IMG/VR virus record: IMGVR_UViG_2671181012_000010
Strand: one strand, 5' to 3'
Origin: a virus
Taxonomy: Duplodnaviria; Heunggongvirae; Uroviricota; Caudoviricetes
DNA: 7,672 nt
Position numbers: made by a program. Each line of letters opens with the position of its first letter. Position 1 is the first letter of the stretch. Positions 6,001 to 7,672 of the stretch are shown in pieces.

Positions 6001-7672
6001 CTTTGACCATCACCTGATCAAGGTGTCCGGCCTTGTATATCCGCGCTGATTTGCGCCCGTCGGGCACAATTTGCAGATTGCCAATATCTTTAAGTTGCTC
6101 ATCAGCCAGCACGACAGGCGGTGTTTTATCTCCGGCAAGTTTTCCGTCCTGCTCCTGCCACTGTTTCGCGTGCGCCCACGCATCACTGCCAGCGAAAATA
6201 ATCACTTCCGTATCGGCGTGTTTTTTCCCTCGAGGCTGTTTTTTTAAGTTCGGTGCGCTTTTCATTTCTTACCTCTGCTGATCATCGTCATGTGGCTACC
6301 GTATTCATTGCGGTAAATATCCCCGCACATAAATTCGGGGTGAGTTTTGCTACTGGCAGTTAAGCCAGTATTTTTTGATGCCATTGAATTAATCTCCTGA
6401 AGGAGTCGTCTTAATCTTTATTTCCCGTTTATTTTTAGCCGTTATTGTTCGCCGCGTTTTTCTTCCTCCGTCATTAACCACACCGCCACATTGCTGGAAA
6501 GTTGTTTGATAAGTCCTGCAATAACAGAAAGGTCATGGTCGTCTATTTCTTCGTGGTTGCGTTCAATCATGCGGCTGATTACTTCGACCTGTTGCGCTTG
6601 CAGTGAGGCTTCTGCCAGTGTTATTTGCTGCATTACTGCACCCCCTTAATTTCATGATATTCAGAACAACAAAGGATTCAGTCATTGACGCATATTGCAT
6701 CATCACCCGATGCAGCAATCAGCCAGCTACCTGCCTTACCTGTAAGCTGCTTAATCAGGGCGAGCAATGACTCAATCTCACCCTCAGTCATTCCACCTGT
6801 GTTACCCATCATCAGAGAACAAATAAGTTCTGCCTGCATTGCGCTTTTTGCTGCTTCATCAACAGTCATATCGGAAAAATCACACATGAATTACTCCTCA
6901 TCCTGAATACATGTCACTGCGTGGATAATTACGCCGGATAAACCGGCTTTAGCTGATTTGTTAATTACTGTGCTGATTGCAGCCTGGACGTTTTCGGCCT
7001 TCACGTTCTGCGTGATGCCAACGGTATAGCCGCGCTTATTAACAGCACGGGAAAAGACGCGGAAGGTTTTAAGCATGAGTCACCTCCTGACGGATACGGG
7101 CGACAAAAATAAGATGTGCGTGCGGCAGCCGGGCGCGTGCTTCGCGCTCAGTGGCAGCGGTAACGGTGAATATTGCAATGCTGTCTGTCAGGCACTGCAT
7201 AAAGCGCCAGACAAAGTAAGGGCGTGCGGATACAGCCATGTGAAAGGCTCCCAATTTAATGTTAAGGAGTCTCGCTACTACGCTGCTAAACGTGGTGGCG
7301 AGACGTAACAGGGTTAGCAGACTGGCAAATTGGGAAACCAGCGAGCGCAAAGGCTCCCCCGTTACGCCCCGCCATAATGCGGGTATGGGTAGGTTTACGG
7401 ACACAAAAAAACCGCTTATCGGATATGGGCGGCTGTCCGCCAATTTATTCAGGCTGCTAAACCCGGTCGCCATGTGGGCGACTCCGGCATCATACAGCCC
7501 GAAAGAAGAGGCGATCAACATGTTTTTATCCATGTGATGCCTCCTGACGGATACGGGCGACAAAAATCAGATGTGCGTGCGGCAGCTGGGCGCGTGCTTC
7601 GCGCTCAGTGGCAGCGGTAACGGTGAATATTGCAATGCTGCCTGTCAGGCACTGCATAAAGCGCCAGGTGAA

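What the first reader, a model, noticed from the sequence alone, without database searches (positions are those of the whole stretch)
7069..7672. Near-identical 128-bp module duplicated upstream of the primase operon, each copy supplying stop + AGGAGG-N6-ATG
Two copies (7083-7210, 7540-7667) differ at only 3 positions while the flanks are essentially unrelated. In both copies the same minus-strand frame ends in a stop at the same relative position (7071-7069; 7528-7526), and AGGAGG plus a 6-nt spacer and an ATG sit at the same place (ATG 7076-7074 for the 61-aa gene; ATG 7533-7531 for ORF X). Either two tandem genes share a recently homogenised C-terminal 46 codons and coupling junction (variable N-terminus, conserved C-terminus), or a conserved cis-regulatory/RNA element is repeated ahead of successive genes, loosely analogous to repeated target sequences in satellite-phage immunity regions. 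In the minus frame 1 of 3 substitutions is synonymous; in the plus frame none is. The window edge cuts the upstream copy, so the array may continue.
Basis: seen in the sequence. Interest (0 to 1): 0.75.

Follow-up and report, generated by a model that had tools for sequence, protein, structure and literature searches.

The report
Duplicated icd/kil gene flanking C4 immunity RNA
The repeated 128-bp module is the coding core of a small Icd/Kil-type cell-division-inhibitor gene present twice, on either side of a P1/P4-type antisense-RNA immunity cassette that controls a phage satellite's replication operon; this is a known kind of system in a slightly unusual tandem layout.

Summary
In detail: 7083-7210 and 7540-7667 differ at 3 of 128 positions, and the stop, AGGAGG and ATG sit in the same places in both copies. 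The module is not an RNA element. On the minus strand each copy encodes a complete Icd-like domain (NCBIfam NF033153), homologous to P1 Icd and P4 Kil and under purifying selection (pN/pS 0.16). The 313 nt between the copies hold a full P1 immI / P4 CI-type cassette: a promoter-like site, a1/b1 targets with an IsrK/seqA-like terminator, C4 RNA (Rfam, 73 bits), and a2/b2 targets, with b2 covering the icdA ribosome site. ORF X, which starts 8 nt before the upstream icd stop, runs in frame through the whole cassette into icdA. This matches the nested eta/kil genes of P4, and the frame is open in all 18 distinct related loci of this layout. The near-identity of the two copies is specific to this lineage. 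Other loci with this layout show 56-68% identity between their copies, so recent gene conversion or unequal crossover is likely. Closely related islands carry one or two heteroimmune C4 units in either order. Verdict: a member of a known system. Moderately interesting details are stackable immunity units and conserved read-through ORFs that annotation pipelines call pseudogenes.

The parts
7526..7672 (-). icdB: 3' part of the upstream Icd/Kil-like gene, cut by the window edge. It contains module copy B (7540-7667).
   Evidence: NF033153 phage_ICD_like, E 5.7e-15, full profile 1-48. In L002 and L007 the gene continues to an ATG giving 66 aa, inside a 488-codon open frame.
7526..7545 (-). Coupling junction B: AGGAGG (7545-7540), a 6-nt spacer, then the ORF X ATG (7533-7531), which overlaps the icdB stop TAA (7528-7526) by 8 nt.
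   Evidence: Read. The same -8 overlap is present in 22 of 23 icd-C4-icd cassettes examined. P4 kil/epsilon has the same geometry, GTGCGTAA.
7069..7533 (-). ORF X plus icdA: a 154-codon eta-like read-through frame spanning the internal promoter, a1/b1, terminator, C4 and a2/b2, and ending as icdA.
   Evidence: There are no stops in this frame over the 110 codons upstream of icd in 18 of 18 unique loci with this layout, against means of 5.4 and 6.5 in the other two frames. P1-type loci average 3.1 stops in this frame. It is positionally identical to P4 eta. No protein-family hit for the ORF X part.
7489..7518 (-). Promoter-like site TTGATC-18-TATGAT inside ORF X, placed like P4 PLE and P1 P1c4.
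   Evidence: It is the only sigma-70-like hit in 6850-7672. It lies just upstream of the 5' end of the IsrK-like match at 7482. This is a consensus match only.
7405..7495 (-). Leader with C4 target sites a1 (7462-7454) and b1 (7446-7440) and an IsrK/seqA-like terminator (U-run 7411-7405).
   Evidence: Rfam c4-a1b1 32.4 bits (E 3e-5) and isrK 37.6 bits (E 1.8e-5). Both are below their gathering scores. b1 AAATTGG is exactly complementary to the C4 b' loop.
7291..7379 (-). C4/CI-type antisense immunity RNA ('C4-alpha'). b' loop at 7337-7326, a' at 7320-7313.
   Evidence: Rfam RF01695 73.3 bits (gathering score 45), E 2.5e-13. Fold z-score -6.2. 75-81% DNA identity to P1/P7 c4.
7249..7291 (-). 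Target sites a2 (7291-7283) and b2 (7257-7249). b2 overlaps the icdA Shine-Dalgarno GGGAG (7252-7248).
   Evidence: Alignment with the annotated P1 a2/b2 sites. There is a 9-nt exact complement to the b' loop.
7069..7239 (-). icdA: 56-aa Icd/Kil-like gene. It contains module copy A (7083-7210).
   Evidence: NF033153 E 8e-14. 41% identity to P1 Icd. pN/pS 0.16 in this frame across 79 unique homologues.
7069..7088 (-). Coupling junction A: AGGAGG (7088-7083), a 6-nt spacer, then the ATG of the 61-aa gene (7076-7074), which overlaps the icdA stop (7071-7069).
   Evidence: Read. This is the same arrangement as junction B and as P4 kil/epsilon.
6891..7076 (-). 61-aa gene, the first gene coupled to icdA.
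   Evidence: phrog_3672, E 1.7e-22, function unknown. Annotated as hypothetical in RefSeq.
4127..6887 (-). Downstream operon: 69-aa and 63-aa paralogues followed by the DUF927 primase/helicase (6265-4127).
   Evidence: phrog_1478 for both small genes. PF06048 DUF927, E 3.5e-40.

Best explanation
The region is the immunity ('Bro') zone of a P4/PICI-type phage satellite, read on the minus strand. The 128-bp module is the core of an Icd/Kil-family gene that is present twice. icdB is the first gene behind an upstream, operator-flanked promoter, as in the model island EcCICFT073. icdA is the first gene behind a P1 immI / P4 CI-type antisense-RNA cassette. These identifications are shown by sequence homology.

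The inferred mechanism follows P1 and P4. A promoter inside ORF X makes an untranslated leader, from which C4 RNA is processed. C4 pairs with a1/b1 and a2/b2. Pairing at b2 hides the icdA ribosome site, so icdA and the genes chained to it by overlapping stop/start codons (61-aa gene through to the primase) are not translated, and transcription terminates. This keeps the satellite quiescent and confers immunity type 'alpha'.

When the upstream promoter fires, ribosomes finishing icdB are proposed to re-initiate at the overlapping ORF X start. They would then translate straight through the targets, terminator and C4 into icdA, as P4 eta does, making expression of the replication operon insensitive to immunity. 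On this view the 'stop + AGGAGG-N6-ATG' carried by each copy is the family's conserved translational hand-off.

The near-identity of the two cores is a recent gene conversion or unequal crossover. The shared icd sequence also serves as the homology through which cassette units are gained, lost and reordered.
For: Shown by sequence:
- Both copies match the full Icd-like profile, as do P1 Icd and the Kil part of the P4 'cI' ORF (E 7.8e-21).
- pN/pS is 0.16 in the icd frame, versus 1.4-2.0 in four other frames and 0.25 in the mirror antisense frame.
- C4 scores 73 bits, with weaker a1b1 and isrK hits. P4 gives the same three hits in the same order.
- Across 119 cassettes there are 18 different b' loops, each with an exact complement of at least 7 nt at b1 and b2 in its own locus. 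Against the b2 region of a locus with a different loop the median is 0.
- The four-way alignment of window, L002-beta, P1 and P7 shows this covariation, with b2 over the Shine-Dalgarno sequence.
- The ORF X frame is open in 18 of 18 unique loci of this layout but not in P1-type loci.
- The -8 overlapping start is present in 22 of 23 such cassettes.
- In P4, eta starts with an ATGA overlap on orf88, kil is its last 65 codons, and the kil stop overlaps the epsilon start by 8 nt.
- The predicted internal promoter lies at 7518-7489.

Literature: the eta/kil mechanism is summarised in PMC10111431 (citing Forti 1999). icd being required for ant expression is taken from the P1 record. orf45-to-anrP coupling is described in PMC4825925.

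Recombination:
- The N-terminus of icdB is about 95% identical to EcCICFT073 icd, and identity is lost at TGGCG(C/T)TTTAT, where the repeat begins.
- Upstream versus downstream icd identity is 56-68% in 21 other cassettes, against 90-95% across the whole matched domain in this lineage (window 90%, L007 95%).
- Sister islands at the same tRNA-Gly site carry beta only, beta+alpha, or alpha+beta units.
Against: - There are no expression data of any kind. The promoter, C4 processing, translational coupling and termination are all inferred from homology.
- The a1b1 and isrK matches are below Rfam gathering scores.
- The ORF X part has no protein-family hit, so only its openness is conserved, not its peptide sequence.
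- NCBI's pipeline annotates both ORF X+icdA ('frameshifted') and icdB ('missing N-terminus') as pseudogenes.
- The start and promoter of icdB lie outside the window and are taken from relatives.
- Sister islands with a truncated, frameshifted icd after C4-beta (L003) show that an intact icd behind a cassette is dispensable.
- The 18 loci with an open frame are related (median 91% identity), so they are not independent observations.
Confidence: 0.8

Rival explanations
1. Copy B and ORF X are non-functional leftovers of recombination between two kinds of early region (EcCICFT073-type P-icd and C4-icd). On this view the duplicated module has no role, the ORF X frame is open only through shared ancestry, and regulation rests on C4 and icdA alone.
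For: The pipeline flags these features as pseudogenes. A truncated, frameshifted icd remnant of 43 nt persists in L002, L003 and L007. The ORF X peptide matches no family. Loci with the open frame are closely related (median 91% identity).
Against: There are no stops in 18 of 18 unique sequences, despite 89 variable columns and compensating 1-nt indels between the alpha and beta cassettes that change the peptide but keep the frame. P1-type cassettes of similar sequence do carry stops in this frame. Long open frames ending in Icd are also kept in EcCICFT073 (433 codons) and L002 (488 codons) at only ~73% DNA identity, with 25-36 stops in the other frames. Copy B retains a complete Icd domain.
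Confidence: 0.15
2. The 128-bp module is itself a repeated cis-acting RNA or DNA element placed ahead of successive genes, for example a target of the immunity RNA, a structured leader or a protein-binding site.
For: The copies are almost identical while the flanks differ. Each is followed by a ribosome site and a start codon.
Against: The module's folding energy is no better than shuffles on either strand (z 0.06-0.51). Its longest complement to the C4 loops is 5 nt, equal to the shuffle median. The substitution pattern across 79 homologues is that of a protein. In 21 other cassettes the two copies share only 56-68% DNA identity yet both encode Icd domains.
Confidence: 0.03
3. The duplication is an assembly artefact.
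For: The window does not match any single complete genome end to end. The closest genomes have an extra unit or a different order of units.
Against: The copies differ at 3 positions and have distinct flanks. The copy-B junction is 100% identical in a complete genome. The same layout occurs in independent genomes and in 19 viral contigs.
Confidence: 0.02

Closest known systems
Satellite phage P4 immunity region (PLE, seqA, CI RNA, seqC, nested kil/eta genes, epsilon ... alpha primase)
   Same: The order of parts and the Rfam hits are the same: isrK/seqA, then C4/CI. The first gene after the RNA is an Icd-like protein, which is Kil in P4. It is the in-frame end of a long ORF that starts by overlapping the stop of the upstream gene and contains the internal promoter. 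The stop overlaps the next start by 8 nt. The operon ends in a primase.
   Different: The upstream coupling partner here is another icd gene, not the alpA homologue orf88. The RNA sequence is of the P1/P7 type (75-81% identity). The ORF X peptide does not match Pfam Phage_ASH, whereas P4 eta does. The primase is DUF927-type. The cassette unit can be present twice.
Phage P1/P7 immI operon (a1 b1, c4, a2 b2, icd, ant1/ant2)
   Same: There is DNA-level homology from a1 to a2. The target layout is the same, with b2 over the icd ribosome site. Icd proteins are homologous at 41% identity. icd is coupled to the next gene.
   Different: No ant gene follows here; small genes of unknown function and a primase follow instead. 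P1-type loci have stops in the icd frame upstream of icd, so there is no eta-like ORF. They also have no upstream icd copy.
Gifsy-1 IsrK-orf45-anrP locus of Salmonella (PMC4825925)
   Same: Both have a short leader RNA ending at a terminator, read-through into a small ORF, and translational coupling to the next gene. The window gives a sub-threshold isrK match.
   Different: In Gifsy-1 the short RNA activates translation in trans, and the output is an antirepressor and an antiterminator. Nothing here tests for that behaviour.
Gram-negative PICI 'Bro zone' (EcCICFT073; PMC10111431)
   Same: Island organisation is int, HTH, Rha/AntA-type genes, icd, small ORFs, primase, SSB, PerC. The promoter region and icd N-terminus are shared. 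C4 and isrK hits in PICI Bro zones have already been reported.
   Different: EcCICFT073 itself has no C4-like RNA and a single icd. The window's island adds a C4-icd unit behind that icd. No capsid or packaging genes are annotated in the sister islands.

Membership tests
Icd/Kil-like protein (NCBIfam NF033153 phage_ICD_like) | Match to the 48-position profile above the curated cut-off of 25 bits | tested here: met
   icdA 51.4 bits and icdB 55.1 bits, both covering profile positions 1-48. P1 Icd scores 52.6 bits and the P4 Kil region 73.9 bits with the same model.
Icd/Kil-like protein (NCBIfam NF033153 phage_ICD_like) | Inhibits cell division or kills the host when expressed | not testable with these tools
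   Known for P1 Icd (record note) and P4 Kil (PMC10111431).
C4/CI antisense RNA (Rfam RF01695) | Covariance-model score above the gathering score (45 bits) | tested here: met
   73.3 bits, full model 1-87. Fold z-score -6.2.
C4/CI antisense RNA (Rfam RF01695) | Loop sequences complementary to paired target sites upstream and downstream on the same transcript | tested here: met
   b' pairs with b1 over 7 nt and with b2 over 9 nt; the a' target motif GCTGCTAAAC recurs at 7453-7462 and 7282-7291 (family D15). 18 specificities covary across 119 cassettes.
C4/CI antisense RNA (Rfam RF01695) | Processed from the leader transcript into a stable small RNA | not testable with these tools
   Needs Northern blot or RNA-seq data.
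c4-a1b1 / IsrK / P4 seqA leader (RF03163, RF01394) | Covariance-model score above the gathering score | tested here: not met
   32.4 bits against 46.7 and 37.6 bits against 50, although E values are 3e-5 and 1.8e-5. Close relatives reach threshold.
P4-type nested eta/kil genes | Long ORF in frame with kil/icd that spans the promoter, targets and immunity RNA | tested here: met
   154 codons, 7533 to 7069. The frame is open in 18 of 18 unique related loci. P4 is checked.
P4-type nested eta/kil genes | Start of the long ORF overlaps the stop of the upstream gene (translational coupling) | tested here: met
   ATGGATAA, an 8-nt overlap preceded by AGGAGG. P4 has an ATGA overlap. Coupling itself has not been assayed.
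P4-type nested eta/kil genes | Constitutive promoter internal to the long ORF | tested here: inconclusive
   There is a single consensus match, TTGATC-18-TATGAT, at 7518-7489. No transcript start-site data are available.
P4-type nested eta/kil genes | Translation of the long ORF suppresses immunity-dependent (Rho-dependent) termination | not testable with these tools
   Known for P4 only, as summarised in PMC10111431.
P1 immI operon | icd is followed by, and coupled to, the antirepressor genes ant1/ant2 | tested here: not met
   The coupled gene encodes a 61-aa protein with no Ant, Pfam or NCBIfam match. It matches phrog_3672, of unknown function.
Gram-negative PICI / P4-like satellite | Integrase, AlpA-type HTH, Bro zone and primase in that order at a tRNA site | tested here: met
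   Sister islands L002, L003 and L007 lie at tRNA-Gly with int, HTH, Rha, AntA/B fragment, icd/C4, DUF927 primase, SSB and PerC. These are annotation names only.
Gram-negative PICI / P4-like satellite | Helper-dependent mobilisation, with late or packaging genes | not tested
   No capsid or packaging genes are annotated in L002. No helper phage is known.

The most novel reading that the evidence does not exclude
The icd core may act as a portable homology arm that makes [C4 RNA + targets + icd] an exchangeable and stackable immunity unit. Satellites would gain, lose, reorder and combine heteroimmune units by unequal crossover, and a two-unit array would give a double lock and immunity against two satellite types. 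The whole zone, including stretches antisense to another gene in EcCICFT073-type islands, may be kept as a chain of open, coupled reading frames. These frames would be selected for being translated (to block termination), not for their peptide products.
Probability: 0.3. Interest if true: 0.55.

Novelty: new member of a known kind. Interest (0 to 1): 0.3.

Why it matters
This result turns an apparently odd repeat into a well-understood regulatory layout. It extends the P4 eta/kil 'nested genes' logic and the P1 C4 antisense logic to PICI-type satellites of pathogenic E. coli.

There are two practical consequences. First, annotation pipelines label the read-through ORFs and the second icd as frameshifted or partial pseudogenes, and they miss the RNA, so immunity regions of satellites are systematically mis-annotated. 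Second, immunity specificity is highly variable (18 loop/target types in 119 cassettes), and units can be stacked. Both points matter for predicting which satellites exclude each other.

None of this overturns current understanding.

Tried and rejected
- A tblastn search of the 56-aa Icd against 50,697 phage records found nothing at E<=0.01. The query was too short and diverged. P1, P7 and P4 were instead reached through the RNA cassette and by accession.
- Pfam has no model for the Icd domain. NCBIfam does.
- The original P4 eta/kil paper (PMC94026) is not held. I relied on its summary in PMC10111431 and on my own reading of the P4 sequence.
My 7-sequence Icd HMM found an Icd domain in only four of them (three from Escherichia, one labelled a Bacillota MAG). 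It therefore says little about the layout in other genera.
- I considered the plus-strand ORF 7075-7308 as a coding candidate and rejected it (pN/pS 1.36 in that frame).
- I considered the inverted repeats I2 and I3 between the module and 4233-4261 (72% complementary) and dismissed them as chance.
- The literature searches I ran did not turn up a description of tandem C4/CI units in satellites. That library is incomplete.
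Full report
**Observation.** The repeat finder gives 7067-7210 vs 7524-7667 (144 nt, 94%, spacing 457). The 128-nt core 7083-7210 / 7540-7667 differs at three positions: 7184/7641, 7130/7587 and 7111/7568. Reading on the minus strand, each copy ends ...CGT ATC CGT CAG GAG G.. and is followed by an ATG that overlaps the TAA stop by 8 nt.

**What the module is.** On the minus strand both copies match the complete NCBIfam profile NF033153, 'host cell division inhibitor Icd-like protein' (51 and 55 bits against a cut-off of 25).
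- Copy A belongs to a 56-aa gene, icdA (ATG 7239, stop 7069).
- Copy B is the end of an upstream gene, icdB, that is cut by the window edge.
- P1 Icd matches the same profile, and so does the last third of the old P4 'cI' ORF, which is Kil.
- The window protein is 41% identical to P1 Icd, with an invariant F-WRF..V.A.TE.EAR..P..F.AR pattern.
- Across 79 unique homologous sequences, pN/pS is 0.16 in the icd frame. It is 1.4-2.0 in four other frames and 0.25 in the mirror antisense frame.
- The module folds no better than shuffled sequence on either strand (z 0.06-0.51).
- Its complementarity to the C4 loops (5 nt) equals the shuffle median.

The module is therefore coding sequence, not an RNA element.

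**What lies between the copies.** Rfam finds three features on the minus strand:
- C4 antisense RNA at 7379-7291 (73.3 bits, gathering score 45);
- the a1/b1 target motif at 7495-7446 (32.4 bits, below threshold);
- an IsrK-like leader with a terminator at 7482-7405 (37.6 bits, below threshold).

The stretch 7470-7281 is 75-81% identical to the c4 region of P7 and P1. I aligned it with the annotated P1 sites, with P7, and with a second cassette from a sister island. The b' loop and both targets change together in four specificities:
- window 'alpha': UCCCAAUUU with AAAUUGG(G);
- 'beta': CCUAUCUG with CAGAUAGG;
- P1: CACUAAC with GUUAGUG;
- P7: CACAAUC with GAUUGUG.

In the window, b2 (7257-7249) overlaps the icdA Shine-Dalgarno sequence GGGAG (7252-7248). 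In 119 cassettes collected from viral contigs and genomes I counted 18 different b' loops. Every one has an exact complement of at least 7 nt at b1 and b2 in its own locus. Against the b2 region of a locus with a different loop the median is 0. The only sigma-70-like site in 6850-7672 is TTGATC-18-TATGAT at 7518-7489 on the minus strand, just upstream of the leader.

**ORF X is the counterpart of P4 eta.** The ATG at 7533 opens a 154-codon frame that runs through the promoter, targets, terminator and C4, and continues in frame into icdA.
- The comparison set is 23 cassettes with an icd domain on both sides of C4: the window, L001, L004, L007 and 19 viral contigs. The start overlaps the upstream stop by 8 nt in 22 of them, and the frame is fused to the downstream icd in all 22.
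- Over the 110 codons upstream of the icd domain, 18 of 18 unique sequences have no stop in this frame. The other two frames average 5.4 and 6.5 stops.
- P1-type loci, which lack the upstream icd, average 3.1 stops in this frame and usually have one just before icd.
- The alpha and beta cassettes differ by compensating 1-nt indels that change the peptide but keep the frame.
- The ORF X peptide matches no protein family.

What appears to be conserved is that the frame stays open, not the protein it encodes. P4 has the same construction:
- Rfam finds isrK (seqA plus terminator) and then C4 (the CI RNA).
- The kil frame is open for 217 codons.
- An ATG at 8767 overlaps the stop of orf88 (ATGA), giving the 199-codon eta.
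- Kil is the last 65 codons of eta.
- The kil stop overlaps the epsilon start by 8 nt (GTGCGTAA).

PMC10111431 summarises the experimental work of Forti et al. 1999. The promoter inside eta makes a leader that is terminated through CI/seqA interactions and yields CI RNA. Kil is translated only on read-through. Full-length eta is translated only from an upstream promoter and is coupled to the alpA homologue. Translation of eta prevents termination. The same paper notes C4 and isrK hits in the 'Bro zones' of gram-negative PICIs.

**Context.** The window is 99.5-99.9% identical to islands integrated at a tRNA-Gly gene in several STEC genomes. Those islands carry int, an HTH gene, Rha, an AntA/B fragment, this zone, small ORFs, a DUF927 primase, SSB, ProQ/FinO, PerC genes and a Q antiterminator. 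Window 7440-7672 is 100% identical to NZ_CP075665.

There and in L002, icdB continues to an ATG that gives a 66-aa protein. Upstream of it lies a TTGAAG-18-TATACT promoter-like site flanked by ACTGGAATCCAGT-type palindromes, and a divergent YlcI/YnfO-family gene.

The model PICI EcCICFT073 has the same promoter region, with different palindromes, and the same icd N-terminus. However, it has a different icd core (51% amino-acid identity), no C4-like RNA and a single icd.

**Why the copies are nearly identical.** In 21 other cassettes with an icd on both sides of C4, the two icd domains share 56-68% DNA identity. Only this lineage reaches 90-95% across the whole matched domain (window 90%, L007 95%). 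High identity to EcCICFT073 ends at TGGCG(C/T)TTTAT, exactly where the window repeat begins. The repeat ends at AGGAGG. The simplest reading is that an EcCICFT073-type upstream icd had its core overwritten by the icdA type, through gene conversion or unequal crossover.

The same homology is evidently used for rearrangement. Sister islands at the same site differ as follows:

| Locus | Layout (5' to 3' on the coding strand) |
|---|---|
| Window | icdB - C4alpha - icdA |
| L003 | icd - C4beta - 43-nt icd remnant |
| L002 | icd - C4beta - remnant - C4alpha - icdA |
| L007 | icdB - C4alpha - icdA - C4beta - remnant |

Breakpoints relative to the window fall 20 and 43 nt inside module B. L001 and L004 have a second, diverged C4 inside the Phage_ASH-coding part of a 550-570-codon frame that ends in a diverged icd. 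Of 16 viral contigs with icd on both sides that were scanned with Rfam, 8 have two C4 RNAs about 478 nt apart and 8 have one. So the array does continue in some relatives. In the closest relatives, however, a promoter region precedes copy B.

**Mechanism.** Shown by sequence: homology of every part to P1 immI and to the P4 immunity region, target/loop covariation, conservation of the read-through frame, and the overlapping stop/start junctions.

Inferred from P1 and P4:
1. The internal promoter supplies C4.
2. C4 pairing at b2 blocks icdA translation, and with it the coupled 61-aa gene and the rest of the primase operon, with termination following.
3. Transcription from upstream of icdB is translated continuously (icdB, then ORF X-icdA, then the 61-aa gene) and so escapes immunity.

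No transcript, protein or phenotype has been observed here.

**Rivals.**
- *Copy B and ORF X are inert recombination scars.* The pipeline's pseudogene calls and the existence of truncated icd remnants favour this. The open-frame statistics argue against it, as do the independent 433- and 488-codon open frames ending in Icd in EcCICFT073 and L002 (0 stops against 25-36 in the other frames, at only ~73% DNA identity).
- *The module is an RNA or cis-acting element.* The folding, complementarity and codon analyses argue against this.
- *Assembly artefact.* Identical junctions in complete genomes and recurrence in many contigs argue against this.

**Comparison and novelty.** This is the P4-type immunity design built with a P1-type C4 RNA, inside a PICI-like satellite. 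It fails the P1 immI membership test on one point, because no ant gene follows icd. It differs from P4 in that the gene handing ribosomes to the eta-like ORF is a second icd rather than alpA, and in that units can be stacked. I found no description of tandem C4 units in the searchable literature, but that library is incomplete. I rate it a new member of a known kind. The stackable heteroimmune units and the translation-only ORFs are modestly new details.

Noticed in passing
L129 7340-8641 (EcCICFT073); L002 16880-18346 minus strand: The icd reading frame stays open for 433 codons in EcCICFT073 and 488 codons in L002, with 0 stops against 25-36 in the other frames. It runs from an AntA/Bro-like N-terminus through the promoter region, and antisense through the YlcI/YnfO-family gene, into Icd. 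The two loci share only ~73% DNA identity over ~520 nt. RefSeq annotates fragments or pseudogenes there.
   Followed up: partly
L128 (P4) 8420-8584; L001 9893-9980: The Pfam family Phage_ASH appears to be the conceptual translation of the CI/C4 RNA region. It matches P4 eta residues 22-85, which overlie the CI RNA. In the 550-aa ORF of L001 it covers residues 377-498, which overlie a second C4 hit.
   Followed up: partly
window 7405-7446 (minus strand): The leader can form two mutually exclusive hairpins that share the strand CCGC(C). One is GGCGG-ACAG-CCGCC, which uses the 3' end of b1. The other is AGCCGC...GCGGUU followed by a U-run. The GCGG / CCGC / GCGG triplet is invariant in about 100 cassettes. 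C4 pairing at b1 might therefore favour the terminator hairpin. The outer pair of the first hairpin is a standard pair in 15 of 21 unique leaders, which is weak support.
   Followed up: partly
window 6678-6887 and 6442-6633 (minus strand): The 69-aa and 63-aa genes between icdA and the primase are tandem paralogues. Both match phrog_1478, of unknown function.
   Followed up: no
window 3824-4096: Nested inverted repeats lie just downstream of the primase gene. One pair has 20-nt arms that are 100% complementary (3824-3843 / 4077-4096). Others are at 3881-3908 / 4001-4038 and are built from GGATA-type motifs around an A+T-rich centre. This could be a replication origin.
   Followed up: no
window 507-978 and 1900-2202 (minus strand); repeats 733-777 / 1951-1995: Several PerC-family regulator paralogues are present (two 100-aa ORFs sharing LE..GLWRRAA.R motifs). 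This explains the direct repeats spaced 1218 nt apart.
   Followed up: no
window 1578-1628 and 1643-1693: A 51-nt direct repeat (82% identity, spacing 65 nt) lies between ORFs. It is unexplained.
   Followed up: no
L002 16541-16600; L003 14083-14125: The truncated icd after C4-beta arose by deletion between two CCGCACGC octamers inside icd. The deletion is out of frame, leaving a 25-codon ORF, but it keeps AGGAGG and the next ATG intact.
   Followed up: partly
L130 / L140 (Symbiopectobacterium sp. RP): Two C4 seed matches lie 826 nt apart on one strand, suggesting that tandem C4 units also occur outside Escherichia. My narrow HMM detected no Icd domain there.
   Followed up: no
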